Position numbers and translations under genes: made by a program. Under the pieces are notes generated by a model that did no database searches, was not told the origin of the DNA, and saw nothing but the letters and a program-made list of their open reading frames with translations. DNA of 62,920 bases, the filler included, from Sluysia triapertura (lineage: Eukaryota), in NCBI GenBank assembly GCA_046118255.1. It is 5 parts of 5 records of this genome, joined end to end, with 100 filler letters (N's around TTAATTAATTAA, not from the genome) between each part and the next. Parts side by side here need not be neighbours in the genome. Positions count along the whole stretch, not along the records: positions 12,153 to 23,757 come from JBJNIA010182890.1; 4 more parts are not named here. The stretch is one strand, 5' to 3'. Positions within the stretch are counted from its first letter, which is position 1. Each line of letters opens with the position of its first letter. Shown in pieces: positions 12,153-35,570 of this stretch.

Positions 12153-12570
12153 GTACCTTAATGCTTCTAAAGGTTTTTCAAGTCCATCTCAAACCCTTAT
12201 ATAGGTCTTTGGAACCTTAAGATATTCTTGAACTGTTAAGATTATTATAAATGTTTTCTCCTATTTCAACAATGTTTATAATAATTCATTTATTACTTCT
12301 TATCAATTCGTCCTTCATTTGTAATTCCATATGTTTTTTACTCGTCTCCTAATCCAAAGTTGGACAATCCCAACAATTTTATAAAACAATGGTTTGACAC
12401 TTATCCTAATTTGAATTTTTATTTAATGATAAACTCAATACATTGTTTTTAAAATAATGGTTTAAAAGAATTAATGTAAAAATATATCCATGGTATACAT
12501 TGAAAAGTTAATGTGTAGTTCATAAATTTCCTATATATTGTTTAGCTTTTCACTAAAAGTAGAATTAACT

Positions 12571-12808
12571 TAACATTTAATTCTCAATAATTAAATTTTT
12601 CGTCTACTGTTTAAGTTGAAATTATACTGTATGAGATTATTATTATTAATTGGATTTATCTACGAACATTTACTAATGACTAAAACCAGAATTGATTTAA
12701 CATTTAATTCGCAATATTTAAATTTTTGATCTGCTGCTTAAGTTGAAATTATACTGTATGAGATTATTATTATTAAGTGTATTTATCTACGAACATTTAT
12801 TAATGATA
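12571..12808. repeat. Imperfect tandem duplication, ~127-bp period
   Basis: TTAAGTTGAAATTATACTGTATGAGATTATTATTATTAA...ATTTATCTACGAACATTTA occurs twice. Confidence 0.9.
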
Positions 12809-13114
12809 AAGAAATTAGCTTAAATAAAATAAGATAAGTGAAAATAATTAATTAATAAAATTAGATTGTTTCTGAGACTCGTAGAAGCATGATTTTTCAC
12901 CATCAGTATCAGAAAAGTCTGTTGAATTTATAAATATATTTTACATTATTATATTTTAATGACCATGTAATCATGCATTAAATATGTATTTAAAAATTTA
13001 ACTATGTATTTATACTTAATAACAAAAAAACTTATTTATTGTTGTATTTATAAGTTGTATACCGTTTATGTTTCAAGAAATAACTTACACGAGTTACTGG
13101 AAAATTATGAATTA

Positions 13115-13239
13115 TTTAAGAATAAGGCAAATTTCTTTCTACGTCAGAAATATTATAGTGAATGATTTACCTTAAGCGCTTTTGAGTACTTACGCAGTAG
13201 ATATGAGCGCAATATAAATTAATATATTATTATTATTAT
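13115..13239 (+). repeat. Family B, copy 2
   Basis: CAGAAATATTATAGTGAATGATTTACCTTAAGCGCTTTTGAGTACTT..GC.GTAGATATGAGCGCAATATAAATTAATATATT, shared with 6391-6476. Confidence 0.9.
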
Positions 13240-16127
13240 CATTAAAAGTGAAAAGTATATAAAATAATTAACATATGGTTTTAATGCCATTTGAGGATGT
13301 GATTTTTGTCAAACATCTAATAACAATAATAATATATCGCCAATAATGATTATGATAAACATTTCAAAAATAATTCAATAAGAAAAAATGAATATTGCCA
13401 ACTGACAAACTATTTCCATTATATAGTGATTATGTTTAATTTTACTGTTATTATTATTAGTAATACGTTTTTGATACATTCATAATACAAATCCGCCAGA
13501 CATTTCCATTTAGTATTTGTAAATAAACTATAAAAAAATAACTTCGATATAATAAATAATTTATCAAATAATTAATTCAATATCGAAATAATAACTTGAT
13601 TTTTAAAATTTATATTTTATTATAAATTAATGTTGAATGCAAAATAAAAATTAAAAATATAATTTCAAACAGATCTAATCTCATCGTAAAGAAGCTACGT
13701 GATAGGTTAATTACCGATAGTATTGTCTCTACTGTGATTTTGTTGTACTTCTAATTTGACAAGAATATATCTACTTATTTCTAAATTTAGTAAAATATCA
13801 GTAAAAATTATATATACATATATAAGAATTGTTATTCCTATTTAAATGATGTGAGTACTTAAATTTTGACACCAAAACTCAAAACTCAAAAATGGAAATG
13901 AATATAATTGTTAATTATTTCTTTTGGTACCGGTTAAATAAATCATTAATCATAAGTCGCTTAGAAGTTAAGTATTAATGACCAAAACATATAGTAAGGG
14001 GAATAAAAATATTCGGAATATCTTGGTATATTTCCTTTAAAAAGATGGCATGGTTTATCACATGTGACAATACAAAAAAATTAAATAAATATAAATTTCT
14101 ACAATGATATCCTTCTTACATTTCCAAAAACTAAAGAATTCAGGATAAATTTTGCTCATTTAATGCTGAAACAAAAAGAAATAATGTTTCAGTCTGTTGT
14201 ATTTTCAGTTAGACGAAAATGGAATTTAGGTGGATCTGATGTTATACAGATTAATTTTGTTTGAAAATCTTTGATGGAATGAATTAATAATAATGCTAAT
14301 AAGATGAGATAAAAAATGTTTAAATACACGATAACCTATCTATAAAGTTTTTATCACACGCCAGTCACAAAGCCAAAAGTTATTACTAATAGGTTGTCTG
14401 ATAATAATACTTCAATTGACCAATACACTTACTCGATTGAAATAATATGGAAAACACTAGTAAGAGGTCTAACATAGATGCATAATAGTCTAACAAAAGA
14501 TATATATTGCATAATTCAATAACTCAAATGCTGATTATTATTTTTAATCATGAGCCTTCTTAAAATGTTAAACATATAGTTTTGAAAATATATACATTAC
14601 GCTTTTATTATTATCAAATTATTTTTATTTATAATGATAATAATAGTATTACATGAAAATAAGATATACAAAAGTAAAAATAGAATTTTACTTTTACATA
14701 TTTACTTAGTAGAAATACGTGAAATTAAAATAAGAGGAAAGTTTGATAATCTACCACTAAACCTTCATACAAAACCACTCATGAAATACAACCTTAAACC
14801 TGTGCATTACCATTTGATCTATTTTTTGCTATCTCATATACTTTCAATTAAATTAACAATAAATTAAAAAAATAAAATACTTGCATAAAAACCAAAAATT
14901 ATATTTAAAACCAATTAAAAATAAAAACATAAAAATTAATAGTAAAATAACACAATGAAAAAGAAATCGGTTTTTAATATTAGGTTGTCCCAAAAGATTT
15001 CGAAATTTGCTACTATTTAAATAAAATAACAAAAATAATTACATTGTAATTAGTTACTTTTTTGCTGCAAATTATACAGCTATTGAAGTTGGTAAAATAA
15101 GCTCTGTTTTAATATTAGTTTCTTAAGTTAATATTTAATTTGTTTAAAATTCGTCATATATTGTTTTGGAGAAATTTTGAATGGTTATAAGAAAATCTAT
15201 TTGACTAAAAAATTTGCTTAACATTAACTAAACGTCATGACAATAAAAGTATTTCAAAGTTAATAATATCTATAATCCGAACCAATCACATGATAAACAT
15301 TAATCTTTATCAGGTTATCCAATATTAATTTTGTCAATGAAAAACTAAATAGCCAATTAACCATACAGTTTTAGATATACTTTGAGGTGACCTCGATGAA
15401 TTGAAATGACAAAAACAAATGAATTTTAGTGACAAAAACGTTCTTAGAAATAAACTAAAACATGATTTATTAAGCTTTTCAAGCACGGATAGCGAAAAAT
15501 AAATCCATTTGACGAAATACAAACAAGACTTAGTTTGAACTAGAGGTGAGACTGGAAACATCTTAAATCCTCTATTTATCACACACGCACATTTAGTTTT
15601 CGGTTAAATTTCAAAGTTCATTTGTAACACTTTGATGGACGTACAAATGTTACGGAATACCGCTTTATGATGACGAGATAAATGATTAGAACTAAACTAA
15701 AAACAGGAAAGCTAAGGTTTAAACACATTGCACTTTTTTCACTCCTTTATGACATTGCAAGACTATAAAATTATATATCGATAACTTTATTCGATAATTA
15801 TTTACAATGTCTTTTGGTGACAAATCGTTCGCATTAATGAATTTATTTTCTTTTAATAATAAATGTGTCTACTAATAATAGAGCAGGTTTTAGTAGTAAT
15901 TTTTAAATACTTTTGGAACAATTTAATAAAATAAATATATTAAAATATTTAAACAATGACTCAATAAAAAAGCTATTAAAAATGATATAAAATTTTCTGG
16001 TCTATTGCAAATGCATTTAAACATATTATATTGCATTAAAAGTTATTTTATTTATATTTATATGCATGGACTTTATCTGGATTTCTTAATTTATGTTATT
16101 TTCGATATTTATTTCATATACCAAATA

Positions 16128-17167
16128 CGTGGTGTATTCAATAAGTATCCAGACCGTATCAGGAAGATTAAATTAATATTTAATACTCCAACATTACTTA
16201 TATTGGGTATTATCAGTATAGTTTGTTTGAATAGATCATATATGGATTACTGCATAGTACCGTTTATTCAAAATTAGTTTCTCGTGCTGCACTACGTTAA
16301 ATACTGAATCACGATAAAGTTTTTTGTTTTATCACTAATAAACAAATCCCGAATTTACTAAAGATAACTTATGATAACGAATGTTCCTCATAAACTAAAA
16401 CCTCTGATAGAATCTGTCAGTTCAAGACGTGTTAGAGGTAAATGTTAAATGATGAGAAACTTGGTTGGGTGAGTAACATTAGTGATAAAAAAAAACGCTG
16501 AATCACCACCAAGAACCTGTCACAAAAGCTCCATGTGAGTGTTGAAATTGTGCAAGCAATCTTGAATGACTTTGAAATCACGATAATCCTAGTATGGTTA
16601 CGAATTTAGTAAAAGAGAGGTCATTTAATATCGCCGTGTGCTTAGACCCTAATCGAAGTAACACTGCTTATTAGAATTTGTATCTGTATATACTTTTTGC
16701 CATTATGATGAGCACGTTAACGTTATAAATGTTAAGCGCAAAAGCTCGTGGCTATGGAAAATGTTTTCGATCTATTATTGGTATATTAAATGTTGAAATT
16801 GATTCTAATAATCATAATTTAATTATAATTAACCTTCATGTTTATAAACGCCGTTGTAGATCCTAATTAAAAAATATTACTATATTACACAATACGTCAA
16901 ATCACAAAAGAGGTCAAACAATGACAATAGTTGAAATAAGTGAGTCATCCTTGTTACAGCTCCACTGGCGCACCTAGTGATTTCTATTTCTTCAGACATT
17001 TAAGAGTAAAAGTCTTTGAAAATTTAGATAAAATGAAAGATACGATAACAGTTTAACTTACCTTTCAGAACCTTATCTCTTTATTTAGTTGAACAATGAA
17101 AAGTGTGGATAATGGCGGTTATATTGTTTTTTTAGAGTTTAATCAAAAACTTATTGAATATACCACT
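16128..17167 (+). mobile_element. Degenerate mariner transposon with both TIRs
   Basis: TA + CGTGGTGTATTCAATAAGT ... ACTTATTGAATATACCACT + TA. Internal remnants of YSPDLAPSDF (..LAHLVISIS / APSDFYFFRHL near 16960-17000) and KCVDNGG near 17100. Confidence 0.85.
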
Positions 17168-18051
17168 TAAGTAACCGGTTTCTGGAAGTTGAATTAGGTC
17201 ATTTCTTGCTTTCATAATAACAATATTAATATTAATAAAATAATCTAAATAACATTCACTAAAAAAATAAAATTACGCTACATAATTATTATATCAAATT
17301 ACTTCACATTTCTTCAAGTTATTATAAAATACCACATAAATTTAGTCAATGAAAACAAAAATGACTAATATACTATTTGATGTATACTTAAATTGACAAA
17401 CAAGTTTAAATTACAGAAGTGGAATCAGAAGTAGATGATCAGATAATTACCACCTTTCTATGCAATTACTATTTGAATCAACAGACAAATTGAGCAAATA
17501 CACTATATCATTTAAGCTTTAGTTTTAGTAAAAAAATTTTCCGTTGCTATTTTACCTTATAAAGGCTTTCGTCTTTCGGCTTATATTATTTTTACAGTAA
17601 CATTGTAACTTCAATTATTATTATCATTATAATTATTATTTAATATTATCCATTTCATTAGATCTCAAAGTCTTACAAACTGTTCAAATTCTTTCTACAA
17701 ATACCTCTAAATACAACTGTTTTGCGTAGTTAACTTATTGTAAAAATTTTAATTTTAGAATAAAATTAACTTTCAAAATGTAATTTTTATAAGTAATGAT
17801 TTTGTAAATATGAATTTACTTAACAATTTTTCTATATGCAAATCTAAATAATTGTAAATATTTAAAAAAATTCTCTGAGCTAATGAATTTTTGAAACATT
17901 GACATAATAATAAATAATAAAATATTTAAAAATAAATTATATAAAAATTTAGAATGTTTGTATTACTTTGAATGGCATCCAAATACCAGACAAGTAAAAA
18001 TTTTGAAATAATAATTTGCCTATTATTTAACAACTTATTTAATAACTTATA

Positions 18052-18065
18052 CATTATTATTATTA

Positions 18066-18120
<55 letters not shown>

Positions 18121-18145
18121 TATTATCGTCATCATCATTATCATT
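18052..18145. repeat. (ATT)n microsatellite
   Basis: Direct reading. Confidence 0.97.
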
Positions 18146-18250
18146 AAAAATGTAAATAATAGACAAAGTATTATTTAAATAATTTATTTAATTTAATTCA
18201 AATAATTTAAAGTTTTAAACTGTTCTGATTAATAAAAACAAATATAATTT

Positions 18251-19150
18251 TCATAATTCATCAGAATGCCTCTTCATTTTTATATATTCATTTCTTGAAA
18301 GACCTTGAACACAAATAGCTTCATGATCATACTTATCTGGTAAGCAAATGTTTACGAGTTGAAAAAATTCTTCAAGAGCCATATGATCAGGATAATTTTT
18401 ACGCCTACAGAGAAGATTTTTCACTTCTTTATAATAATTAGCAGCATAAGGCCAAAATACTCGTTTCTCATTAACCCTTACTTGAATTCTAAAACCTTGG
18501 CGTTCTTCATCAACCATATGTGGACAATAATACATATCTAATGCCAAATTTCCAGCAAATGGTACCATATTGGAAACTCTAAATGTAGAAAAACGTTTTG
18601 ATGAATCTGATAATAAAGTCACACGAGTATTGTATGCAGGTGCAATCATAGGTTCTGATTGATTGAAAAGGCCGAGCGTAGTAATTGCAGGAATAAGAGT
18701 TTCAGCATGACCAAACCACATAGTAGCTCTATAATATGGTTGCCAAAGTAAATAAGAATTTAAGCATCACTTTTTTTGCTAAAGTGTATTGTTGTAACGC
18801 TGCTTTATAACTTCGAGCTGCTGCAATAATTTCCTGTAATATTTGTGAATATAGTGCACATGACTGCATCCAATTTACATCTGCCGCATAACTTTTCATC
18901 CAATAATGTTCTAAATCGTAGAGGTATTCTAGGATAGGAAAATGATGTGGTTCAAATAAAGAGCACAATGGGGACGATTAAATCGGAGAAAATGAATCAT
19001 TTTCTAGCAATACTGAAAGACCATCACCAGCTGGTGTTTGCTGCGATACTGGACGTTTTATAATTATTTAATTCTGCTACAGCACGTTTTGTATTTCGAA
19101 AATTACTTTCTCCAGATGGTACAGACAGACTTTGTTCAAAACTGATGAAA
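18251..19150 (-). pseudogene. MINPP1: Multiple inositol polyphosphate phosphatase 1-like, 3' half; apparently disrupted
   Basis: SPLCSLF...LEYLYDLEHYWMKSY...SCAL, FGHAETL and FRVSNMVPFAGNL...YYC match MINPP1 motifs. There is an in-frame TAA at 18978-18980, a frameshift near 19070, and a ~42-nt GT-AG intron (about 18729-18770) that does not restore phase. The N-terminal RHG exon is not in the contig. Confidence 0.8.
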
Positions 19151-19474
19151 TATGCATCGATGGATCTTGCTTATAGAAAAGTACAAATTTTCCGGTATCA
19201 CAGTCAGATATATTGCGTAGTATAAAAAAAGAGAAAGAAAGATTGATAATAAAATAAACGAAAAAAATAACAGAAAAAGGAAATAATAATGATAACAATT
19301 ATGTGGTTATTGTGTTTATTAATACTGAAATACTTATGTTGAAATTTATTACGAAATTTATTATGAGAATTATTATAAACGTTGTTATTTGATATTATAC
19401 AACAATAATGACTATAATTATTTTATATTTTAATACGATTTGAATTGTAATAATAATAGTGATAGTCATGATAA

Positions 19475-20575
19475 TTAGATGTGATAGTCATGTTTGATTT
19501 TGAATGAGTTTGGTAGTTTGTTTAATAGTTTGTGTATATGTGAAGTGTTTTCATGTGATGAAATGTTATGGACTTTGTGTGATGAATTCCCCACACTCAC
19601 CAATATATTAAAAAGAGAGATGGAATCCTTCGTGTGCTGCTCACAAGTAAATGACTTTGGCACGAAGGTATAAAGCATGTGTAAGAGTCTTCGAGTTCTG
19701 GAAATTGGATTAAGAGTTGTATAAGATACCAGGCTGGTGCAGGTCATATTTACGACACCTTGCAACCAACCGTATGGAATGCCCAATGTTCTGATTATGA
19801 GTTCTGGGTGAAAAGACACCAGAACTTTATTGTACAAAGAGATCATCCAACACTTTCGGATATCGTTGATGTCCTTTGCGATGCTTATATAATTTTCCTT
19901 TAGGCCATGATCGATAGTTAAATAATTTTTTATTCTTATCCTTGGCTTAATTATTTCAGTCATATGGAATGTCTGGTGATAAGGCATCATACACATTTTG
20001 ATAATCTGATGCTTATCTCTGAAATCCAGAATGCATTGCGCACCTATAAAAGCTAAATGCGATTTTTCAGATAAGGAAATTTCTGGAGTGTGCGTAAATG
20101 CAATGTACATAGAATTGGTATCCGAGGCGTATAATAATGGATACTTATCTAAATTAGGCTTATTTTCTTCTAGCGCGAATAAGACTGCAAAAGTTGTTGG
20201 AAGCTCGACTGGTTCTACATATATTCTGCACTTGTCCGAAGCGTTGGTAATATATAAGGAAGAATAACTCTGGATACGAAATTGTAATGGTACGAAATCG
20301 ACACGCATAGTAATCTTGATGTTGCCCCTTGCTGCAGCAATTAAGATCGTCTGATTATTCTCGGGGTATCCTTGCAAAAGATTAAGTACTAGAGGCACTT
20401 CTATTGTGTTCACACGAAAAAGGTGAGTAATGTAAGGCTCGTCTAATTCATTTTGGTTTAAAGAATGTTATAGGAGAATCATTTTGGTCACAATATCTGT
20501 CAATGCCGTTATAGAAGGAAGAAATGTTGTTTATTGTTTTTGCATGTGGCATAGACATGTTTTGGTACAAAGTTT
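19475..20575 (-). CDS. Orphan frame (~365 codons; 312 aa from the track's GTG), probable mobile-element accessory gene
   Basis: Long ORF in AT-rich DNA. The same frame extends to a TTTAG acceptor at 20576 through two TAA codons. No recognisable domain. The last ~38 codons plus downstream sequence recur at 32260-32550. Confidence 0.65.
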
Positions 20576-20806
20576 CTAAATAATAATAATATACATAAAG
20601 CAAGTGAAAAGGTATATAAACAAATGGAAAAAGTAAAATACGCGTTAGTTTAATTTATATTTTATATTTTTTATTTATTTAATTACAAAACCTTATGTTA
20701 CTTTTAGGAGTAAAAAAGAAATTAAACAATCCTAATTATGTTTTTTCTTAATAAATGGATTGGCTATTTTATTTTTATGATATAGTCCTGCTCGTTTGTA
20801 AAGACG

Positions 20807-21196
20807 TCATCTTTGACGACGACGTCTGTTATGCCTCTGAGACTTCGTCAAACCAGAGGGATAGTTTGGAGGAGGTACTGCTATTAAGTACTGTTTGTTA
20901 TTTTTCTTAGTTTGATTTGGACGATGGATTATGACCTCCTCTACCTCAATGTGTTGATTATGCAAATAATCTGGTATTTTTTCTAGAGTATAAGACAATT
21001 GGTATTTTCCTTTATAATAAGTGTGAACTTCCTCTACAGGTGTTCTACACATTGGACAATTCATAAAATCTGTAGTAGTATGATGAAAAAGGGTAATGAT
21101 GCATTTGAAGTGAAATTTATGTGAACAAGGATGGGTGTTTATGTAATGTTTGTGGATTGAATGTTGGCAGAATGGGCAGCGGTGAAAGTGTATATT
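20807..21196 (-). CDS. RING-H2 (C3H2C3) finger protein exon with Arg-rich C-terminus
   Basis: Extending the track ORF upstream to the acceptor TTTTCCTTTTTTAG gives NIHFHRCPFCQHSIHKHYINTHPCSHKFHFKCIITLFHHTTTDFMNCPMCR, with all eight ligands. It ends GLTKSQRHNRRRRQR*. Confidence 0.88.
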   Translation of the reverse strand, partial: NIHFHRCPFCQHSIHKHYINTHPCSHKFHFKCIITLFHHTTTDFMNCPMCRTPVEEVHTYYKGKYQLSYTLEKIPDYLHNQHIEVEEVIIHRPNQTKKNNKQYLIAVPPPNYPSGLTKSQRHNRRRRQR

Positions 21197-21419
21197 CTAA
21201 AAAAGGAAAAATATAATATAATATAGTAATATTATTTTAAAGTTAGTTAGTTGATTAATTAATTAGTAAAAATAATATAGTTATGATCCTAAGTATGTAC
21301 GTTACTATAAAACTACGAAAAGTATTAAACAGTAATGTTTATAAAGTTAGGTGACCGGCTGGACAGAGAATAACCGTCGACAGCGATCACTCGTAACTGT
21401 TTATATGTACTGTTTAATC

Positions 21420-22370
21420 CTATACTTTAATTGTATGTGTCAGTCTACGAGGTATCCTTATACACATTTTTATGGCTTCAGTCGTAAGATTGACTGCAAG
21501 CGAAGCATAAAGTACGAATATGATAATGCAAAGCTGAATGTTGATTTTAAATTCTTTAATGTCATAATTGTGTTTGAAAATTTTAGAGTTAATTAAGTTG
21601 GTTTTATTAATTTTATTAGATATTTTAGTTGTGATATTACTTATTGTTTCCTTAATTTGTATGGACTTACTTAATATATTCTTATCTATTTCAATTTCAT
21701 TAGTTGTAATTTCCTTAACAATAGGTATAACGAAATTATATGGTTTGGTGATCGTCCAGTCGTTTGCTTTTATTGATTCATTAACTTTAAGTATCCATAC
21801 ATACATAACTGAAGAGAATGACTCAGGATAATAATTTAGTGTAGTGGTATATTTTGGTGGAATTAGTACTGTAATAGTTTCTTTATCCGTTCTATATCTT
21901 ATTATAATTGAATTATTTACCAAAGGATTTGTTAATTTGATTAAATCGATTTCGTTAACTAATGCTGTTATGGAGCAGTTTAACCATTGTTTGCTAAATT
22001 TATCATAAAATTCGTAAAGCAATGTTTCAATCCAATAGTATTGAGTGTGTATTATTTTATCTATCAATTCCATTGTTATATTGACTCGATATAATTGGGA
22101 TTCAAATAGTTCTTCACATGTTAATACCCAATATTTCGAAGTTTTAATTGGTGTCGTAGAAGTGGTACAAAATTTATTAAAACAACAAGTAATGGATAAG
22201 CTAGTTAATTCTTCATCTTTTTGTTTAACTATTGCTATAATTGCGTCAGTCTTTGGTTGAATATTTACTTGTATATTATTATAGAATATTTTCTTAATTT
22301 ATCTATTATTGTTTTGGAGGAGTCTATAGTTGATATTAAACATATACATAGTAACACTGAAGATATTTGA
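21420..22370 (-). CDS. Envelope-like type I membrane glycoprotein ORF (frameshift after putative signal peptide)
   Basis: Frame is open 22298-21420 (293 codons): Cys cluster ITCCFNKFC..TC, several N-x-S/T sequons, amphipathic I/K/N segment, hydrophobic LCIIIFVLYASLAV and a short basic tail. Signal-like ISSVLLCICLISTIDS lies in an adjacent frame at about 22320-22367. Confidence 0.55.
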
Positions 22371-23757
22371 AATCCGCTATAATGTGTTGGTGATCTTACA
22401 ATTGCTATAATCTTTCTCCCCACGCTCTAGTACATGCCAGCAGTTGGCGCGGGATTCCATTTCTGTTTTTAACATATTATGCAATAGGGACGTGTCATTT
22501 TTGCCACAGGTGGTTCAAAATAAAAAATTAGATGTTACACCTTGCTCTACCTCTTCACTTTCTTCTTCTTCAAAAAATACTAAAAACACTTAAAAAATAC
22601 TAAAGCACACTTAACAATAAATTTAACTTCGATACACCAATTTTACATGAACACTACAAACAAATCACAAAAAACATATACGAGTCTCCAATCATCAAGA
22701 AAAGATAAAGAGATCCGCCTGCCACCGATAAGTCTCCGGAGGTGAATTCGGATGAAATCAAAACAATAGATATCAATATAAGCAAACTGATTAATAGCTC
22801 TCGACGATGAGGAAGAATTAGTTGATATCGATTTTGGTCATTTATCATCAGCACTTAACCCTGATGAATTTTTTGATTGTAGTGATGACATTATCGATCT
22901 GACTTTTTAACTTTTTAAATTGAAGACCAATTTTATTGGTCAGGGAAGGTGTTGTCATGATTGATTGAAAATAAAATATTGATTTGAACTTTGAAGTAAT
23001 ATTTATAATTGTGTGCAAAATATTTATAATTATGTGCAAGTTGTGCAAATTATTGATTTTATCCATCATTTATATTTGTAAAAAATTATATTTGTTTTCT
23101 GGATTTTACAAATTTTACAATAATAGTTAGTCATTTTATTTAATATTTAGTAATTTTATTAAATTTTGTTAATATAATCATTTTATTGAATTTTATTAAT
23201 GTAATTTTAAAATAATTAGGAATTTTATAATTAATTTAAATTATTTTGATGTTTAAATTTGACCTTCAAGGTCGACCCGCAAAAAGCAAAAAACATTTAA
23301 CTACACTTATTTTTGGTGAAGATAAATTATATTTTATAAAAGAATCAATACATTTTTGCGGATTGATCCAGTATTTTAAAAACTCTGTTTTTAAAGTATC
23401 ATTGTAAAATGCAACTAAAATCTTTTGTTATTGATTGGATCTTTTCATAGATCCGAAGTAAAATCTTTTTTAAAATATAAAATATTTTAAACATTAATAA
23501 ATTCTCTTACAAAATATCATTTATTATATTATTTTTTAATTTTATACATATATTTCATCTTTGATAATACATCTTTAAGAAAATCTTATTTTTGTTATCT
23601 AAAGTTAATAATTAATAATTTTTAAAAGGATCCTTTTAATAGGATAAAGTGTAGTGGGTATCTTGAAAGATTCGGTTACTTTTAAACTTTTTATGTTTTT
23701 ATAATTTTTTGGTTTTAGAAAATTAGAGTTTACTAAACTTGAATAACTAATCAATTT

Positions 23758-23857
23758 NNNNNNNNNNNNNNNNNNNNNNNNNNNNNNNNNNNNNNNNNNN
23801 NTTAATTAATTAANNNNNNNNNNNNNNNNNNNNNNNNNNNNNNNNNNNNNNNNNNNN
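23758..23857. other. Artificial contig linker
   Basis: N44-TTAATTAATTAA-N44. Confidence 0.99.
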
Positions 23858-23919
23858 ATTTATATTATATACGTAAAACTTGTTGTAATGATGAAATAAA
23901 TGTTTTAAATTCAATTCAT

Positions 23920-23982
23920 CAACTGCGCAGACGATGGTCCCTGGTTCGATCCCCGGTCAGTCATTTTTATGAAGTATAACAG
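23920..23982 (+). repeat. tRNA-derived repeat, 3' half (B box)
   Basis: CAACTGCGCAGACGATGGTCCCTGGTTCGATCCCCGGTCAGTC-ATTTTTATGAAGTATAACA; B box GGTTCGATCCC. Confidence 0.75.
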
Positions 23983-26180
23983 CAACGATATCAACAAATG
24001 AAGATCCATTCAATTAGCAATCATCTGAATAGACAGATTTATATATACAACTAATAGCTTTAAAATTACAACTGAAATCATCGTACCATATCTGAATGCA
24101 GACTATGAATACAATGAACCACGTGAATGAATTCTGAATCAATGTCTAATATTTAACTTTTGAAATTAATTATCATTCTGCTTTAATCATATCTGTTGCC
24201 ACTTCAGTATGATAAGTTAGAATTTTTACCCTTGCTTTTTCAATAAGGTTTTACCTTCCTGACGATGATAAATGTTAAATTTCTATTATTAGTTTTAAAG
24301 ACTTCTCCGATGTAAGACGTTGTAATTAACGTGCCATTATTTTTCGAAAAGTTTCAGTACAGGTTCCTAGCAACGATTCTGAATGGTTTTGAAAATACCG
24401 AGTAATATAAAAACATTCAAGAAAATCAATAACTCTTAATATTTAATTTTTACAGTTGGACATTTCATCAAATATGTGACTCTGAATTCTTTTCATTCAT
24501 TTTTTGCTCAACACTTGCATTAATTTTCAATAAAAATTTAATTTGCAAAACATAATTAACATTGATAATCGTTAAGTTCATTATCGGACTAAAGGTGTCA
24601 GTAATTACAACTATAATAATGACGGTACGTGTATAAAAAATTACAATATATTCCAAAAAATTATTTTTAAACTTGTTTTGTCACTATATAAAAAATTCAT
24701 TTATCTACCTGTACTTATTGTAAGCGTTTTAAATTTTGTTGAATCACATATTCCTTTAGTTTAAAATTTTGTATATTTTATGTAAATATTACATGCCATA
24801 AAAGTAATGCAAAATATGAATTTCAGAATCAAAAATGTAAAAGTTAAATACATATAAAATTCAGTATTCACTTTTGTTACATAAATACGTAAAACATATT
24901 TTGATATTTAAATATCAAAAATATTGTATCTTTATTTAGTATTTTTCTTCATTATACATTTAGCTGTTTTAAAATAAATTTCAATAAAACGATGTATTCC
25001 TTGTAGATTTAGAAACATATTTTAAAATAAATTGAACCCAATAAAACAACCCAAGCAAAAGAAACTGATATCAGACGTTTTTAAAACCATTTATTATTAA
25101 ATCACTTTCACTTTACTTATTTCGTTTTTTCATATTTTTGTCGTTTTTTATTAAATATCAATAATTTTAACATAAATTTAATTGAAATCTTATACACCGT
25201 TTCATTATTTTAAATAGTACCATAATTTTCAGATTTATTACATTTATTATTATTGAAAGCTAGACTAAGAAAAGGTAATGCTTTGTAAAATGATTATCAT
25301 AATCTCTACTGCATTAAATAAGCACGAATGTTTAATATTCAAACTCATCATTCCTATTCAAAAATATTTAATGGTATATATACTCATATTAGTATATATT
25401 ATGAGTACAATAATTTGTTTTAGAAATATAAAATACAAAACAAATATATGTGACCTGATCATTAAATATTAAAGTACTTACATCATTAAATAATCTTTAA
25501 AATGAACTTTAAGTTCACAAAAATTATATTATAGTTAGTAATCTTTATGAAAATAAAATTATTTGTTAGTTACACACACATTTCGATTAAAATTTAACAC
25601 TTAGGACATCGCGATATTTACGAATTTAGTAAAAATACAACATTTTTGTTGTTTAATTTCGTATTTCATTTAATACAATATTTATCTAGAATTATAAATA
25701 TTAACTTTTAAGCGATAGAGTACCTCAAGTTGTAATTTTGAACAAAATATCTTGACTAAATAAATAAAATTTTCTGTAAATGTTAGAAATAGAATATTTT
25801 TATGATATTGTGTAAATGCAATAAATTCGTATTACAAATTATATCATAGAAAATTAAAAATATAATACAAACAAATCGGGCAAAATTTAATCTGGATAAA
25901 CAAAAGATGAAATTATTTACACATGGACAATACTTATTAATAAAAAATAATTGACTATAAAATCTCTAAAACTTTATGAAAACCAACAAATAAAGTTTAA
26001 AAAAAATAGTTGAAAATAAAGAAAGTAAAATTTAAAACATCGACTTAGTAATAGATATAACTAAAACATTTAATAATCATGTCAAAATTTACGCATTATC
26101 AAAATCAATGAATTTCTAAAATAAAAAAATAAAAATCAATAATAGTCACCATTTTCTAAAAAAATGTAGTAAGGTTTCAC

Positions 26181-26181
<1 letters not shown>

Positions 26182-26239
<58 letters not shown>

Positions 26240-26268
26240 AATAATTATTATTATTATTATAATAATAA
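26182..26268. repeat. (AAT)n switching to (ATT)n microsatellite
   Basis: Direct reading. Confidence 0.95.
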
Positions 26269-26479
26269 TTTAGAGTACATCTTGCGCTTCTGTAATAGTT
26301 GATTTTCTTTAATTGTCAGAAGGATAATGAATTGTTAGCATAGTTTTTTGAAGATCGAGATAACTGCTATTCTTTCGTATTTCGTATAATATAATTATAG
26401 TGATAATAGATAATTTCATAAATTATAATTTCGTATAGTAATAAAATCACATTAATAATTTCATTATAATAATTCATTA

Positions 26480-26602
26480 AATTGTTAGACTTCGTAAAAG
26501 GGACCATCGCTGCGCAGTTCGAATGCTCTACCACTGAGCTATCAGCCCCGTCTAACAGTTTTATTTTATTATTGTCAATTTTACCAAATAGCACTTTAGG
26601 CC
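26480..26602 (-). repeat. tRNA-derived repeat, 5' part (A box), tRNA-Cys-like, T arm deleted
   Basis: Minus strand GGGGCTGATAGCTCAGTGGTAGAGCATTCGAACTGCGCAGCGATGGTCCC. Shares ~55-bp 5' flank and 3' flank with the copy at 60991-61116. Confidence 0.8.
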
Positions 26603-26629
26603 TTTTACCTCAACAAAATTAATCTCCGG

Positions 26630-26960
26630 TTTAAGATGATTTTAATTAATCATAATGTTTTTAAACTTTAATTTAATGCTATTTCTATTTAATCTTAGAT
26701 TAAGATGATTTTAATCGATCATAATGCTTTTAAATTTTAATATCATATTACTTTTCTCTATTCTATCTAATCTTTAATTTAAAATGATTTTTATCGAATA
26801 TAATGTTTTTAAATTTTAATCCTAATTTTATTTAATTAATCAACTGTGATAGTAGGGTTTAATGTTTATAAATTTTGATTTTATATTACCTCTATACAAT
26901 CTCACTTTAAAACAATTATTCTATAAAAACATTATGATTTCAATCATGTTTTTATAATAA
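26630..26960. repeat. Degenerate tandem array (~70-bp unit TTTAAGATGATTTTAAT..CATAATGTTTTTAAATTTTAAT)
   Basis: Units at about 26630, 26699 and 26778. A related array lies at 30335-30640. Confidence 0.75.
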
Positions 26961-27286
26961 TTAACATTAAAATAACTGAAGATTTATATGAGCATTACCT
27001 TTACAGTATGTTTTTTCATTTTTATGATTATTTTCTTTTCTTTTGTTTACATCTTAAATTAAATGTACTTTTGAAATGTTTTTTTCGTGATTTTAGATTT
27101 TTATACTGATTCTTTTTAAGTTATTAATATATTTTAGTTTTACATTAATTATTTATTTAAGATTTATTTTATTAAACAAATTTTAGTTTAATTTTCTCAC
27201 GGTAATAATAAAAATAATAATAATAGTAAATAATATCACATCAATATTTTAATAAGTCTTAAATTTTATTTTGTTGGATCTTTAAG

Positions 27287-27778
27287 GATGTTAGTATTCA
27301 AAATAAAGAATCACCGAAATTGACATTATTGAACCAAAACTCAGGACCATCGTCTGTCTGTGCTGATTGCGACATAAATCCCAGTGAGTGGATCTCAAAA
27401 CGTCTACTAGTTCAATTGTGTACTAGTTGTGCCAGTTTACATATTGATAAAGGAATCTCTTTAGAAATGGTATATCTTAATACTCAATTACGCAGTTGTA
27501 CAATATTGAAAGAATTATATGAATATGTTGGTGGAAATCAAAAATTAAATAATGAATTCTGGTTGGCTTTACCTTATCGTCATGAAATACATCGAGAAAC
27601 AATATTACTGGGTGATTTCGGAAACTATATTGTAAATAAATATTTGGCTAAAATGTATATATACGAACAATACAAAACTAAAAATTTCTTATTGTGGAAA
27701 TCGAATTTGTTGGATATGAATCATGGATCTTTGTTTCAGTTCTATCAGAAATGGTTTTCATTGGTCAGTACCAGTTAG
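27287..27778 (+). CDS. Divergent ArfGAP-domain exon lacking the catalytic arginine
   Basis: CADC-x16-CTSC zinc finger with the conserved W, then GGNQKLNNEFW and YIVNKY. The canonical C-x2-C-x3-H-R reads CTSCASLHI. In-frame AG acceptor at 27285-27286. Confidence 0.8.
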   Translation, partial: DVSIQNKESPKLTLLNQNSGPSSVCADCDINPSEWISKRLLVQLCTSCASLHIDKGISLEMVYLNTQLRSCTILKELYEYVGGNQKLNNEFWLALPYRHEIHRETILLGDFGNYIVNKYLAKMYIYEQYKTKNFLLWKSNLLDMNHGSLFQFYQKWFSLVSTS

Positions 27779-30334
27779 TTGTTAATGATTATTATATAAA
27801 ATCGAGTAATGCGTATTTATATGCATAATCTGGAACTTCAAAACATACTTCGCTTCATTAAATAGATCCGAAATAATGATATTTAAGGACTGTTTCTGTT
27901 GTAAAGATGAATTTAAAGTAAACTTCTGAAATCTCATTTTTTAAATATAATAAATATGCATTGACATATTAATATTATCAGTAGACGATAAATGGTCATG
28001 CATTATTTTTAAAAAGATTATCTCATATTATTTCTGGTTTGATTCTAGTTTTCCCAGTGGCGGAATTTGCGGTTCCAATTTCTATGCCACTGCCAACATG
28101 TTTGTTTCTCGATTTAATTAGTCTATGATGGTAGTATAATCCATCTTATTTCAGTTATTCATTTCGTAATTATTTACATTATTATGATTCATTTATCATT
28201 TATCAGCCATTAGCTCTAGAATCTGCTTAATAAAGAACTAAGTAAATTTTTAACGCAACGAAAGCATGCTTAGAAAATCTCTTGCAATAACATTTAAGTT
28301 TTATTTTCATGAAGAAATGTGGTATTCGTTTTTGAACGGTTAATGTACTTTTCCATTTTTACAGCGATTATTATCGATCTTGGTTTTAATATCCATTTCT
28401 TACCATGACTAGCTATGAGTATTTCGTATTATTTTATTTATATTTGTGTTTCCTTTCGCCTCCAGCAAAAATTTTCTTCAATTATAATTAGTTTCTTATT
28501 CACACTACGAATATTACTAATATTACTAATGATACTAATATTTCATTTAGTTTTTCTTTGGTGGTTTTTAAACTTTTTTTATTACAGCAATGAGTCAAAT
28601 TGTGTAAAAGTTTTCGTTTCAGCTGTAACAGTTATTCTTCAATAATAAATCATCGAAGCAATAATTAAGAAAAGCCTGACTGCTAAATTTAATCCAATAT
28701 ATATTACCATTTTGCCAAATATTTGTTTCAACCTTCATGTTATTCTTGAAAAGTTGTTTTACTTGGGTCATTAAATTTAGAAATTGCTTTTGAGTTTAGT
28801 TACAAGTTAAGTCGACATATTACACGATTATGCCTTAATATATTTAAAATTATTCAAAAGTGTATTTAAAAATATTCATTACTGTATTTAAAATTATTAA
28901 TATTGTTAAATTTAGAAAATGATTCAAACTTAGTAATCGTTCTTTGCCGAACTTAAAATGACTCCGGATTCTTTCTTATATTAATGAATTTATATATACT
29001 TTATCTATACTTATAATAAATGTAAACAATTAACTTTTCGACACCAACTTAATGAAATGTTTTTGACAAATTCTCAATCAAAATCTCACTTTTCAACAAT
29101 AGTTTAAGCTGTTTCAATTATAAATTATTACTCGTTTACAATTGTTTAAAGACATTTAGTAGTTGATTTATCTTATGAACTCTTTATTATCTCGTTCTAT
29201 AAATAATGTTTACGTCTTAGCCTTATTTTATATAAACACGTGAGCTGATGACCTGAAATGGAAACGCGAAAGTAAGTGTTTATTTTGCAAAATTGAATTT
29301 CGTTTTAATGAAAATACTCAAATTTAGTTATCGTAGAAATATTATTTCAACTTAATAAAGTAGTTTGTTTTTTCTCTTTTGGGCTCCCCTTCCAAAAACC
29401 AACTACAAATCACAAAAACACAAGTCGAATTTATGAAGATTTATTAAGAGAAACTTTTACACATTTTTTTACAGGTAATATGATTATAAATCAATTCAAG
29501 TATCGATATAAAGTTTATTAACAGAATGCTTATAACAAACAAATGCTTTATAAAATTTATTTTTGCAGGTAATATAATTATAGATTAGTTCAAATGCTTT
29601 TATAAAATTTATTGAATATTTATAGCAATCAACAGAATTAATTAATTCAAATACTTTTATGAGGTATTTTATGTTACGCTTATTCTGAACGAAACAAAAT
29701 TAGTAACTATTACTTACTGCAATATAAATGTACAAAATATAATCCAATCAATGTCTCGTCTATTTACCAAGTAGAGTAGACTGAAGTCCAAAATCTCTGT
29801 AATTAGTAGCAAGATTTTTCTTTCTTTTAAAGTCATTTCCAGTAGCAAATCAATAAAATTCTTGTATAAGTACAATGAGTGTGTTTTTGTGGAATTTTTA
29901 TCGCTATTTATACTGCTATTTACTACAACTATCTTTAATGCTATTTATTATTATTTTTGCAATAATCAATATAATCGTTAATAATTTTATCAAAATTCAT
30001 AGTAGAATAATAATTTTTTGATGTAATATTTTGTAATAATTGTATAAACCACTTGGAACTGTTATTGTTTTTAATACTTTCTTGGAGCACATGACTTGAT
30101 CTCATTATTTTAACAGCTGCATTTTATTTTAAAGTTGTAGTTATTAAAAGACAATGCATTATTAAAAATTATTAAATTCAACAATTACACCTCTAATTTT
30201 CCCTAATACACAAACTAAAATGATAAATAAGAAATGTAAATAATATTTTAAAATATTAGGATGTTTCCTAATATTAAGAATTTTAAAAATACACTTAAGA
30301 TACCTCAGAAAATAATAAAATTGGATTTTAAATA

Positions 30335-30640
30335 TAATTTAAGATAATGTTTTTAAGATAATTTTGATCGGGTTTTATGTTCTTAAAATTTGATTTCATA
30401 TTACTGTTATTGATTCTTAATTTAAGATGATTTATTGACTACAATAATAAGGTTTGATGTTTATATATTTTAATTTCGTATTGTATTTATAGGATCTTAT
30501 TTTAAAATGATTATATACACATTTTCACTTTAAATTTAATTGTTATTTGTTATTAAATTTTGAATTTATTTTAACTATATGTAATCTCATTTTAAATTGA
30601 TACTAAAGCATTATAATCTTAATTTTTAACCAATATTTTA
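30335..30640. repeat. Second degenerate array related to 26630-26960
   Basis: TTTAAGATGATTT..ATAATAAGGTTTGATGTTTATATATTTTAATTTCGTATT aligns with 26840-26920. Confidence 0.7.
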
Positions 30641-31392
30641 TTAAAATTAATGTATAAATATTATATTTTATTAAAAATTTTTATTTTATAAATTATTCTA
30701 TTAAAACTGAGTTTAATTAAAATGAAGAATGAGCAGTATGTCTATATATTATATTACAATATTTTGTAAGTAGTTTTTACCTTACTTGCAAAATGAATTC
30801 TTCGATGTGTCCGCCTATAGAAAACGTTTTCTAAGAATAGACGAATCTGTAGGATTTAAAAGATAATTTATAAGAAATCGTTATACTAATGGTCGATACT
30901 ACAATTAGATTAGATGGACTGTGTGTTGTCTATTTATTCTTGTTTTCTGATCATGTTTAATTAGATTGATTTCCTTTTTATTTAACTAAATAACTAAATG
31001 AAAATATGAAGAATTTATTACGAATTATCAAAAGAAAACTAATATTACAACTAAGGTAACTTCAGTGTTATATAAAGCAATATTAAGATTACTCTTAGTT
31101 AATAATTTTTAAATGTGACTCCTTACACACATACGATTTATCTTTAAAATCGTATAATAATTATGTGTTGGTTTGTATTGGTTAGTATTCATTTTTTGAT
31201 TTATACTTTATTAGAATTATAGATTTTCTTGTTTTCTCGACACTTTCATCTGTTGTATGACCTTTTTTCGACTTGCTAATTAGGTATTCTTCTTGCGATC
31301 TCTTTTGTGTTTTTTCTTTTACTTCTTAATTTTGTACAATTATATATACCATAATTATGTATAAGTTTCAGTGTTGTATTTTATATGTTCAG

Positions 31393-31970
31393 ATAAACCA
31401 GCTGATGATATTTTAACAGATGTAGAAAAGTCTTTAGATAACAATAATATGGCGAAAGTTTTCTTTTACATTCAAAAAAGCAGTATAGAACCAAATTTAA
31501 ACCATTGTAAGCGATTTATTTTCAATGTAAATTTCTTTCTTGGTACCACTGAATGTTGTTTACCAGTAAAGATATTCCAAATCGAATTTTATGATAAATT
31601 TCTGTTAATTCAAACTGAGTGCAATTTATATATTAATCAAAAATACAAAAACATTACTTGTATTACTTATGACAGTATTGCCGCATTGTATGTCGATACT
31701 ATTAAATTACCATTTTTAAGCAATCGAAAAGGTATTCATTTGATAGTATTACCACCAATTTTGGTGTCATTTTCGAACATACATTTAATTACAGTGGACA
31801 ATTTATTTATTTATGAACAAGACCAAATCTCAAATAATACATCTTTAACAAATAATTTAAATAATGTGAAACTTTTTTTACTTGAAATGTTATTAAATGA
31901 ACCAAATCAACATATTTATAACGATATTGATGCTTACTTATCATTATATAGTGGTTCTGATTTGAAATAG
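31393..31970 (+). CDS. Orphan terminal exon (~192 aa), unknown function
   Basis: 600-nt open frame in AT-rich DNA; TTCAG acceptor at 31392; beta-rich-looking sequence with no recognised motif. Confidence 0.6.
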
Positions 31971-32114
31971 ACTAATGATAATAATAGAATCACTGATGTA
32001 ATACATCTAATACATCTAATGTAATACAGTAAAAGCTATATATATGTATAAATGAAGATGCTTTTCCAATACGTTGTCTTTACTAAAAGTCTAACTTTAG
32101 CAAAATTGCTTTTC

Positions 32115-32115
<1 letters not shown>

Positions 32116-32182
<67 letters not shown>
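32116..32182. repeat. (AAT)n microsatellite
   Basis: Direct reading. Confidence 0.97.
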
Positions 32183-32185
<3 letters not shown>

Positions 32186-32259
32186 AAAGGTAAAAAAAAG
32201 ACAATTAATAATAATGATAACAATTGTATAATTACTATATTAATTAATATAAAGTTGGT

Positions 32260-32550
32260 GATATTTATTACGAAATTTTATCGTGAAAATTATTACAAAA
32301 GTTATTATAGAAGTTATTATTTGTCGAATATATTATATAACGATAAAGATTATAATTTTAACTCGAATTTTGAAAAGATATAAATCGTAATAATAATAAT
32401 AGTTCATGATTGTTAAATGAGATGATCGTGTTTACTTTTGAATGAGTTTAATAGTTCGTTTAGTAGTTTGTGTATGTAGGTATCGTTTTTAAGTGATGAT
32501 TTGTGCTGAACTTTATGAAATGAGTTATAGTGAATATTGTGTGATGAATT
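32260..32550 (-). repeat. Diverged copy of 19340-19588
   Basis: Translates NSSH...YIHKLLNELLNSFKSKHDHLI* versus NSSH...HIHKLLNKLPNSFKIKHDYHI*. The downstream sequence ATTTATTACGAAATTT is also shared. Confidence 0.85.
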
Positions 32551-33938
32551 ATGATGGATACCGTATTTATAATTGACCAAGTTACAGGCCCCCCACTATA
32601 CGTCCTAAGACGTTTATTGTAACCTGACACTGCAAAAAAATATTTTTCCGTAGGTTAAGTGATAGAAAAACCAGAGCAGATCTAATCCAATAAAAAGGTA
32701 CTATTTTTCTACCGAATTGTTCTGCCTATCCTCCACATCTTTTTACATTTATTCATCATATTTCTATTTCAGCTTTTATTCTCCTACTACTCCGACATCG
32801 TCATATTACCAGCTACTCCTTCAAAATCAAGAAAATTCAGCGTCTGCCTACTCTAAAACTCGCTACGATGTTTGAAATCCAACATACCATCAGTGTCCTA
32901 GTCATCACAATTGAATCTAAATTCCGCCGTCATCGTCCATTTGTTCACCAACGCCTAATCACCTCAGTCATTACTGAGACAAATATCAATTGATTTTTCA
33001 GATTCGTACATATTTTACTTATTTTGTCAATTGATATGAAGACAAGTCTTACAAAGCGCTTATAAATACACATAAATTCTTATTTCCACATTATTATTAG
33101 TACTATTATCAGATAATCTAACATCTCTACTAGATTCTATTTTGCTAAATTGTTACTTTAACATTAAATTATTTGTTATTACATTTAGTAGAATTAAAAC
33201 CAAATCCAAATTGTAAATTAGCATCTGATAAACACTGACATTATAAATAAAATAATATATATTGTAAAAAAAACTTTCTAAATTACCCTATTGAATTTTT
33301 GATATTCAAAAATGAGAAATTTACAAAATAGTTTATTTGTAAATTCATAAAATATATTTCATCAATATCACAATTAGATATACATAAATCATATTATAAT
33401 ATCATGAATCAGTAAGACAATGCTTATAAGAAATGTTTTGAAATATTACAATTAAAATCATATTTAAATCAAATTGTTTGTAGAAAGATTTTGTTTTAAA
33501 CGCTGTACAGTAAAGAAAAATGTCAATGGATTCAAAAAAAACAATTTACAATTTATTTGTAAATATTTTCTAAATTATAAAATTATATTAAAATGTTTAA
33601 GAAATGTAACCACAATTTTCTTTACTGTTTAGTAGACAAAAATAATTCGAAATAGATGGCTTCCAAGTATGAAATCACTATATTGTTTTATGAAATTAGA
33701 TATGTATATATACACTACGGCAGATATATATTGTAACCATAGATTTTTTAGAATATATTTTAAAATTATGTATAATCAAGTAAGATAATTCAGCTAGTTC
33801 ATTTTATCTGCATTATGCAGATAAAATAAACTTATAATTATTTTAATTACTAATTTTAATGAAAAATTTTATCATCTAATATTTAAAAGTTCCAAAATTT
33901 CTCCATTGCATATAAATAGTAAAATGAAAGTTAAAACT

Positions 33939-35381: not shown

Positions 35382-35570
35382 GTGAGATTTTCTTGATTGT
35401 TAAACAATAATAAATTAAATTAAATTAAAATTTTGAAATTTATTATTTGTAATTTTGCGACAAATTAAAATGCTTGATTAAGTAAATAAAATAAGATTTT
35501 AATAATCAAAATTTAATGATTAATCATTTAAAAACAAAACAAAAGTATTTATAAATTATTATATATTAAT

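What the first reader, a model, noticed from the sequence alone, without database searches (positions are those of the whole stretch)
19340..22400. Candidate novel element: compact cassette of env-like glycoprotein, RING-H2 ligase and orphan ORF
Seen: three tightly packed, same-strand, A/C-rich frames with ~200-bp AT spacers. The RING and orphan frames each begin at a splice acceptor rather than an ATG, lesions are few, and the 3' end is repeated on another contig. Knowledge: retro- and errantiviruses express env and accessory genes by splicing from a common leader, viruses often carry RING ligases, and giant planarian Gypsy elements (Burro) are reported to carry extra ORFs. Inference: accessory region of a large endogenous virus-like or retro-element that expresses several genes by alternative acceptor use. 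No pol or integrase is visible here.
Basis: partly seen in the sequence, partly recalled or inferred. Interest (0 to 1): 0.75.

Follow-up and report, generated by a model that had tools for sequence, protein, structure and literature searches.

The report
Spliced orphan cassette with dead exonuclease
Three real, tightly spaced genes in an AT-rich animal genome (a membrane-anchored protein of unknown family, an intact RING zinc finger, and a relative of RNA-trimming exonucleases that has lost most catalytic residues) are likely the decaying accessory genes of a mobile element, likely expressed by splicing, but no replication genes or extra copies of the cassette were found and the 'envelope' label is unsupported.

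Summary
The three minus-strand frames, their 223- and 231-bp spacers and the two splice-acceptor-like sites are real.

New here: the 'orphan' is a DEDDh (REX4/ISG20-type) exonuclease relative (profile-profile 92%, E 7e-7). It lacks the ExoI Asp/Glu and ExoII Asp, as do its two relatives where they cover those sites; only these two were found among 1.8 billion representatives. So it marks a small, undescribed pseudo-nuclease family.

The RING-H2 keeps all eight zinc ligands. The 'env' is only a single-pass membrane ORF with no env similarity. Its supposed 5' extension is the antisense of a second, inverted pseudo-nuclease fragment. The repeat shared with another contig is 340 bp downstream of the nuclease domain, so it does not show that the cassette is repeated.

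Best reading (0.5): decayed 3' accessory region of a large LTR-type retroelement, each gene expressed as a spliced message. The leader is either the element's own or the host spliced leader, whose terminal AUG in flatworms would start the ATG-less RING in frame. No gag, RT, integrase, LTR pair, copy number or RNA evidence was obtained. A host operon of lineage-specific genes remains open (0.25).

The parts
21420..22298 (-). No clear start; 5' end probably lost or rearranged.
   Evidence: 292 stop-free codons, P 3.5e-12. One hydrophobic segment near the C terminus. No Pfam or NCBIfam hit, no PHROG hit below E 0.3, no PDB hit, no homologue. Not similar to an F/env profile.
21323..21419 (-). Long imperfect hairpin directly after the ORF1 stop
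   Evidence: -32.1 kcal/mol, z -6.6, 0 of 200 shuffles; 0 of 500
21197..21251 (-). Branch-like motif, pyrimidine tract and AG in front of the RING frame (phase 0)
   Evidence: Best acceptor-like site of 2342 YAG sites; phase
20807..21196 (-). ORF2: RING-H2 finger (C7, C10, C24, H26, H29, C32, C47, C50) with a basic tail; no ATG before the finger
   Evidence: Pfam zf-RING_2 E 6e-6, 26.8 bits against a cut-off of 27.3; PDB RING domains
20781..20880 (-). Structured RNA segment around the RING stop codon
   Evidence: z -4.1; z -4.0, 2 of 200 shuffles for 20735-20880
20576..20600 (-). Acceptor-like site in front of ORF3
   Evidence: One of 9 sites with a branch motif and at least 11/17 pyrimidines
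19589..20575 (-). ORF3: beta-rich N-terminal part plus a catalytically degenerate DEDDh exonuclease domain (about residues 142-282 of the 330-codon frame). Broken near its 5' end; the C terminus runs into the repeat.
19246..19588 (-). A/C-rich interspersed repeat ending in a T-rich tract; candidate 3' LTR or 3' UTR remnant
   Evidence: 71% identical to 32169-32526; no codon constraint
32169..32600 (-). Second copy of the repeat on another contig, preceded by a G-rich tract and TGTAAC (PPT/LTR-start-like) and followed by an ATT microsatellite
   Evidence: the PPT/LTR reading is inference
22393..22479 (+). Inverted, diverged paralogue fragment of the last 29 codons of the ORF3 nuclease domain, with one stop
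   Evidence: 55% amino-acid identity, E 4e-5; pS 0.55 against pN 0.27, Fisher p 0.03; no significant upstream extension
22534..22571 (-). Purine run followed by TGTAAC upstream of the cassette; possible alternative left boundary
   Evidence: One of 3 of 38 TGTAAC sites with at least 6 G in the preceding 14 nt; post hoc and weak
18251..19225 (-). Neighbour, probably not part of the cassette: decayed 3' half of a histidine phosphatase gene (MINPP1-like; name recalled) with host-like codon usage
   Evidence: Pfam His_Phos_2 E 7e-5, just under cut-off; several frame changes and stops; GC3 0.18

Best explanation
The region holds three real genes (a membrane-anchored protein of unknown family, an intact RING-H2 finger and a DEDDh exonuclease relative that has lost three of its four catalytic acids), and it is most likely the decaying 3' accessory region of a large LTR-type retroelement whose genes would be expressed as separately spliced messages.

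Shown: the frames, the RING, the pseudo-nuclease family, the acceptor-like sites, the paralogue fragment and the repeat.

Inferred mechanism: one long transcript is spliced at the acceptor in front of each downstream ORF, and a leader supplies the RING's missing start codon in phase 0. I put the element's own leader exon at about 0.5, the host spliced leader at about 0.4 and internal promoters at about 0.1. The RING would act as an E3 ligase against host factors. The dead nuclease would bind rather than cut RNA ends, as a shield or decoy in the manner of Maelstrom/EXD1-type inactive DEDD domains. The membrane ORF would do an env-like or surface job not identified here. The downstream repeat would be a remnant of the 3' LTR or 3' UTR.
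For: - Compact intronless same-strand ORFs with A/C skew.
- ORF3 third-position GC is 106/282 against 135/814 in seven host coding segments, p 2e-12; at fourfold sites 38/108 against 51/268, p 1e-3.
- Only 2 true relatives among 1.84 billion representatives, each a singleton on a short contig. Conserved host genes would be expected to have many.
- A diverged paralogue fragment lies 2.7 kb away, and there are lesions typical of decay.
- The other copy of the repeat follows a G-rich tract plus TGTAAC.
- DEDD exonucleases and short TM ORFs are known 3' cargo of rotifer LTR elements, whose ORF3s are typically expressed from spliced messages (PMC5408684, parts 1-3 of 5 read).
- Burro carries RING and ubiquitin-related cargo (PMC6431247, passages).
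Against: - No gag, RT, integrase, PBS, LTR pair or target duplication was seen; flanks read through with X gave no Pfam hit.
- No ORF is repeated at DNA level in the window. Repeats cover about 5% of the window, so lying beside one is not rare.
- ORF1 has host-like codon usage (58/284, p 0.15), and the RING's excess vanishes at fourfold sites (6/40).
- ORF1 is unlike F/env. Flatworm errantiviruses are reported to carry only gB-type env, placed between gag and pol (PMC13524379, passages).
- Spacers of 300 bp or less with acceptors are equally the signature of flatworm host operons (PMC12582326, passages).
- The genomic context of the two relatives is unknown.
Confidence: 0.5

Rival explanations
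1. A host operon of fast-evolving, lineage-specific genes (perhaps once domesticated from an element), resolved by spliced-leader trans-splicing, now partly decayed, with an unrelated short repeat inserted at its 3' end.
For: Spacers of 223 and 231 bp fit the 300-bp-or-less operon criterion used for flatworms (PMC12582326). Flatworm spliced leaders end in AUG that can start translation (PMC12582326, PMC9851317, passages). The RING acceptor is in phase 0. ORF1 codon usage is host-like. A host-type phosphatase fragment follows on the same strand. An intronless RING ORF and another orphan ORF lie on the next contig.
Against: ORF3 codon usage is unlike the host's. There are almost no relatives in public data. 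Trans-spliced genes in Macrostomum are mostly conserved genes (PMC8629364, passages). The host being a flatworm is itself inferred.
Confidence: 0.25
2. An endogenised piece of a DNA virus or Polinton-like element; such viruses carry RING ligases, REX4-type exonucleases and membrane proteins.
For: Three loci in the viral collection (one labelled as a giant-virus bin) encode REX4-type exonucleases. The best PDB match of the RING is a herpesvirus RING (E 2e-4), barely ahead of cellular RINGs. One relative comes from a metagenome assembly.
Against: No relative in viral contigs or phage records. No viral core gene nearby. Strong spliceosomal acceptors and an ATG-less ORF are less typical of such viruses (own knowledge).
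Confidence: 0.15
3. A chance pile of unrelated decayed fragments (nested insertions and an inversion), not one unit.
For: Inverted paralogue fragment, truncated ORF1, repeat joined at the end of ORF3, pseudogene next door; the three ORFs differ in codon usage.
Against: Two spacers of almost equal length, each with a structured segment at the upstream stop and a branch motif plus AG at the downstream start, look like one design.
Confidence: 0.1

Closest known systems
Bdelloid rotifer Juno/Vesta LTR retrotransposons and Terminons with extra ORF3s (PMC5408684, PMC6431247)
   Same: DEDD-superfamily exonuclease and short TM ORFs as 3' cargo, typically expressed from spliced messages
   Different: Those exonucleases are DEDDy-type with catalytic residues reported intact, and usually one ORF3. 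Here the nuclease is REX4/ISG20-type DEDDh and degenerate, lies in a three-gene array with a RING-H2, and no pol is seen. Rfam found no hammerhead in the stretches scanned.
Planarian Burro/GYPSM1 giant Gypsy elements (PMC6431247, passages; the original paper was not held)
   Same: AT-rich invertebrate context; accessory ubiquitin-related and RING cargo
   Different: Burro's cargo and env lie inside or upstream of a ~4,900-aa polyprotein. None of its listed domains (MATH, BIR, BCL2, ankyrin, dUTPase, fusion protein) was detected here, and the passages list no exonuclease for it.
REX4/ISG20-type DEDDh exonucleases; inactive DEDD derivatives Maelstrom and EXD1
   Same: Collinear fold-level similarity over the nuclease domain; loss of catalytic residues as in Maelstrom/EXD1 (named as inactive RNA binders in PMC5408684)
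   Different: About 18% identity; an extra N-terminal beta-rich part; a family motif P-[YF]-G-W after the ExoII position; no Pfam hit to Maelstrom or RNase_T
Errantivirus env / baculovirus F
   Same: C-terminal membrane anchor; weak atlas neighbours carry Baculo_F in 12-14% of members (score 0.77)
   Different: Scores below shuffles against a 25-sequence F/env profile; no fusion-peptide or furin motif; few cysteines

Membership tests
Ty3/Gypsy LTR retrotransposon (incl. Burro) | gag and PR-RT-RH-IN pol | tested here: inconclusive
   None in the 11.6-kb contig; the contig is short and no genome was held
Ty3/Gypsy LTR retrotransposon (incl. Burro) | Paired TG...CA LTRs, PPT, PBS, target-site duplication | tested here: inconclusive
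   No long direct repeat in 17000-23757. PPT-like G tract plus TGTAAC on the other copy of the repeat, and only a G-rich tract here.
Ty3/Gypsy LTR retrotransposon (incl. Burro) | Dispersed multi-copy family with conserved gene order | not testable with these tools
   No genome; no read or contig layout was obtained
Burro | env and cargo domains in frame within the giant gag-pol polyprotein | tested here: not met
   Separate short ORFs; none of the listed Burro domains in Pfam scans; dUTPase test negative
Errantivirus/baculovirus F-type env | Sequence similarity to F/env ectodomain | tested here: not met
   -7.7 bits; 400 of 480 reported shuffles (of 500) scored as well; no Pfam hit
gB-type env | Similarity to class III fusion proteins | tested here: inconclusive
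   No Pfam or PDB hit; no dedicated profile was built and ORF1 was not folded
RING-H2 E3 ligase | C3H2C3 zinc ligands with RING spacing | tested here: met
   All eight present; Pfam E 6e-6, 0.5 bit under cut-off
RING-H2 E3 ligase | E2-dependent ubiquitin transfer | not testable with these tools
   Needs an assay
DEDDh exonuclease superfamily | Homology to the DEDDh fold | tested here: met
   Atlas 27 of 30 hits RNase_T, borderline score. Directed HMM 9.7 bits, 0 of 500 shuffles; top of 762 six-frame tiles. Family profile against the REX4 alignment 91.9%, E 7e-7, controls under 1%. Only PDB hit is a PolC exonuclease domain, E 0.09.
Active DEDDh exonuclease | D, E, D, H, D catalytic residues | tested here: not met
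   ExoI D/E and ExoII D are replaced in ORF3 and P0001; ExoII D is replaced in P0002, which lacks ExoI. Only the last His and Asp align in ORF3.
Penelope-like Terminon | Athena RT and 3' hammerhead ribozymes | tested here: inconclusive
   No RT in the contig; no hammerhead at E up to 1 in 12153-20500 and 21000-36312
Flatworm SL-resolved operon | Same-strand genes 300 bp or less apart with unpaired acceptors | tested here: met
   223 and 231 bp; acceptors
Flatworm SL-resolved operon | SL-bearing reads at the acceptors | not testable with these tools
   No RNA data could be laid

The most novel reading that the evidence does not exclude
A flatworm mobile element carries an operon of accessory genes that is cut into single messages by the host's spliced leader. 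It borrows the leader's terminal AUG as the start codon of its RING ligase, and encodes a new family of dead DEDDh nucleases that act as RNA-binding decoys against piRNA/Maelstrom-type silencing.
Probability: 0.15. Interest if true: 0.78.

Novelty: new variant of a known kind. Interest (0 to 1): 0.42.

Why it matters
The firm result is a small, unannotated pseudo-DEDDh protein family with three members plus a paralogue fragment and no Pfam model. If it is element cargo, it extends the known exonuclease cargo of invertebrate retroelements to an inactive REX4/ISG20-type form paired with a RING ligase. That pairing is a candidate counter-silencing kit in animals whose stem cells depend on PIWI control of transposons (PMC8532177, passages). 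If the host spliced leader supplies the RING's start codon, an element would be using trans-splicing to express accessory genes. My searches (listings only) showed no such report, and the Oikopleura Tor paper I checked has no mention of trans-splicing. One RT-PCR can test this.

Tried and rejected
- No whole genome was held.
- Word-based homologue searches found nothing for ORF3 or for ORF1 at near and longer lengths. None of 10 window proteins is in the collection by exact match.
- Related-locus scans found nothing: viral, metagenome, phage records.
- Sequencing runs: two holders (shares 0.42 and 0.05), no RNA holder listed, neither laid; no evidence either way.
- Both single-sequence folds failed (pLDDT 33.5 and 30.5), so the viral fold search is meaningless. 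The PDB-wide fold search never ran.
- P0003 (E 7e-4) is a PKD-repeat protein and was dropped as spurious.
- A dUTPase-like N terminus was rejected: 79 sequences from 97 loci; 61 of 354 reported shuffles scored as well; the script stopped with an error after printing these scores.
- A recalled resemblance of ORF1 to Rel/IPT domains found no support.
- Homology of ORF1 to the ORF at 31365-31970 is unresolved. Six identical residues and 19 identical bases lie in frame (0 of 3000 codon shuffles share a 19-mer with that ORF, 66 of 3000 with the rest of the window), but the overall alignment is not significant and the joint profile hits nothing.
- Which 5' frame of ORF3 matches P0001 is not resolved (377 and 238 of 2000 shuffles; no BLAST hit).
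- The INT1_R3 Pfam hit (E 5e-4, under cut-off) was treated as chance.
- AATAAA/ATTAAA motifs after the stops are too common to count (21 in 3.6 kb).
- The bacterial promoter scan and tRNA scan were uninformative.
- My recollection that Tor env is trans-spliced was not borne out.
- Seven look-ups of earlier findings returned nothing.
Full report
Setting. The window is five short contigs joined by N linkers; the finding lies in the second, 12153-23757. GC is mostly 18-28% in the window and 28-33% over the cassette. Innexin and protein-kinase exons show an animal genome. A flatworm, probably a planarian, is my inference from composition, ATT microsatellites and a recalled innexin motif; no call tested it. 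No whole genome was held.

Observation. The three minus-strand frames exist at 21420-22298, 20807-21196 and 19475-20467, with a 5' piece to 20575. They are A/C-skewed and separated by 223 and 231 bp from stop to AG. Under my own simple score, the site at 21196 is the only one of 2342 YAG sites with at least 15 of 17 pyrimidines, no upstream AG and a branch-like motif; 20575 is one of 9 at a looser threshold. Both spacers begin with structured RNA at the upstream stop (z -6.6, 0 of 200 shuffles; z -4.0, 2 of 200). Ten of 97 sliding windows had z below -2, and the strongest lie at these two places.

ORF2 is a RING-H2 with all eight ligands (Pfam E 6e-6, just under the curated cut-off; 54 PDB matches at E up to 1, nearly all RING domains and mostly cellular). 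It has no ATG before the finger, and the finger's frame starts in phase 0 at the acceptor. A leader must therefore supply the start if it is expressed.

ORF3 is not an orphan. The language-model atlas pointed to RNase_T (27 of 30 hits, score 0.90, borderline by the tool's own limits). I then fetched REX4-type exonucleases by a recalled motif and built a profile from 57 of 120 loci. The rest lacked a 150-residue open frame with the last motif, and one was a duplicate. ORF3 scored 9.7 bits, above all 500 shuffles (297 reported, best 4.3) and first among 762 six-frame tiles of the window (E 0.025).

The full HMMER search of 1.84 billion representatives returned 3 proteins: P0001 (E 2e-14, 365 aa), P0002 (E 4e-4, 176 aa) and a spurious PKD-repeat protein. 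P0001 and P0002 are unnamed singletons on 1,964- and 720-bp contigs with no Pfam hit. Each also beats 300 shuffles against the REX4 profile. The three-member profile matches the REX4 alignment at 91.9%, E 7e-7, with dUTPase and F controls under 1%. Its only PDB hit is a PolC exonuclease domain (E 0.09).

The ExoI Asp/Glu and ExoII Asp are replaced in ORF3 and P0001, and the ExoII Asp in P0002. This is a small pseudo-DEDDh family. Both relatives continue about 20 or more residues beyond the last helix, where ORF3 runs into the repeat, so ORF3 looks cut at that junction. Its 5' end is broken: either its own ATG frame with one frameshift, or the phase-0 frame with two stops. P0001 does not decide between them.

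ORF1 is real but unidentified. It has one C-terminal hydrophobic segment and sequons at about chance level. There is no significant family, PDB or homologue hit. The atlas lead to Baculo_F was weak (0.77), and a profile of all 25 fetched F/env proteins scored it below most shuffles. That fragment is 55% identical in protein to the end of the ORF3 domain, with pS 0.55 against pN 0.27 (p 0.03), and does not extend detectably upstream. A second, long-diverged family member therefore sits inverted at the cassette's left edge, which suggests rearrangement or a divergent gene pair.

The shared repeat, 19246-19588 against 32169-32526 (71%), begins where the nuclease domain ends and shows no codon pattern. 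On the other contig it follows a G-rich tract plus TGTAAC, as at a polypurine tract and LTR start, and ends in an ATT microsatellite. Here only a G-rich tract precedes it. A purine run plus TGTAAC also lies at 22539, so a giant LTR holding the whole cassette is not excluded (3 of 38 such sites; post hoc). Repeats cover about 5% of the window, so an unrelated insertion is also possible. Downstream lies a decayed histidine-phosphatase 3' half with host-like codons.

How it likely works. Shown: genes, motifs, family. Inferred: a mobile origin, from ORF3's codon usage (106/282 against 135/814), rarity, paralogy and decay. The ORF1 and fourfold-site RING figures do not differ from the host. Expression would be by splicing at each acceptor. 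Retroelement 3' ORFs, including DEDD exonucleases and short TM proteins, are typically spliced (PMC5408684; parts 1-3 of 5 read). The alternative is the host spliced leader. All reported flatworm leaders end in AUG that can start translation, and operon spacers are 300 bp or less (PMC12582326, PMC9851317, PMC8629364; passages). Phase 0 at the RING acceptor fits this, but has a one-in-three chance. The proposed roles (E3 ligase against host factors, RNA-binding decoy) rest on family knowledge only.

Comparison. It works like the extra-ORF region of rotifer Juno/Vesta elements and shares a cargo theme with Burro (PMC6431247, passages). Membership of Gypsy is unproven, and the Burro layout and F-type env tests are not met. 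Flatworm errantiviruses are reported with gB-type env between gag and pol (PMC13524379, passages). PMC8532177, PMC11410931, PMC13238120 and PMC4402516 were seen as passages and gave no matching layout. The original Burro paper was not held, and Repbase-type libraries, where such an element may already be filed, could not be searched. Searches (listings) showed no description of a pseudo-DEDDh plus RING-H2 cassette.

Verdict. A real, odd, partly decayed three-gene unit. The new pseudo-nuclease family is solid. The element reading is about even odds, and the splicing mechanism is untested. Interest 0.42.

Noticed in passing
window 31365-31970 (+): 201-codon orphan ORF preceded by a long pyrimidine tract and ending about 200 bp from the second copy of the repeat; shares six consecutive residues (19 identical bases) in frame with ORF1; no family hit.
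   Followed up: partly
window 33939-34745 (-): Intronless C3HC4 RING ORF with its own ATG and host-like codon usage (Pfam E 8e-9).
   Followed up: partly
window 27263-27778 (+): Divergent, apparently intronless ArfGAP-like ORF (Pfam E 2e-9).
   Followed up: no
window 18251-19225 (-): Decayed histidine-phosphatase (MINPP1-like, name recalled) 3' half ending in an SDEL tail; its 5' half was not found in the flanks scanned.
   Followed up: partly
window 22650-22910 (+): Broken small frame with an acidic end, on the plus strand downstream of the paralogue fragment; possibly another decayed cargo gene.
   Followed up: no
window 32600-33000: GC-rich, strongly G-skewed (minus strand) segment upstream of the PPT-like tract; looks like decayed coding sequence, no significant Pfam hit in six frames.
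   Followed up: partly
window 38815-39518 (-): Two adjacent frames resembling a coiled-coil LINE ORF1-type protein (resemblance recalled; no significant Pfam hit).
   Followed up: no
L001-L003: Three contigs of the viral collection encode intact REX4-type DEDDh exonucleases.
   Followed up: no
window 19595-19600 and 21665-21670 (-): Consensus-like splice donors at the end of the ORF3 domain and inside ORF1; may be chance.
   Followed up: no
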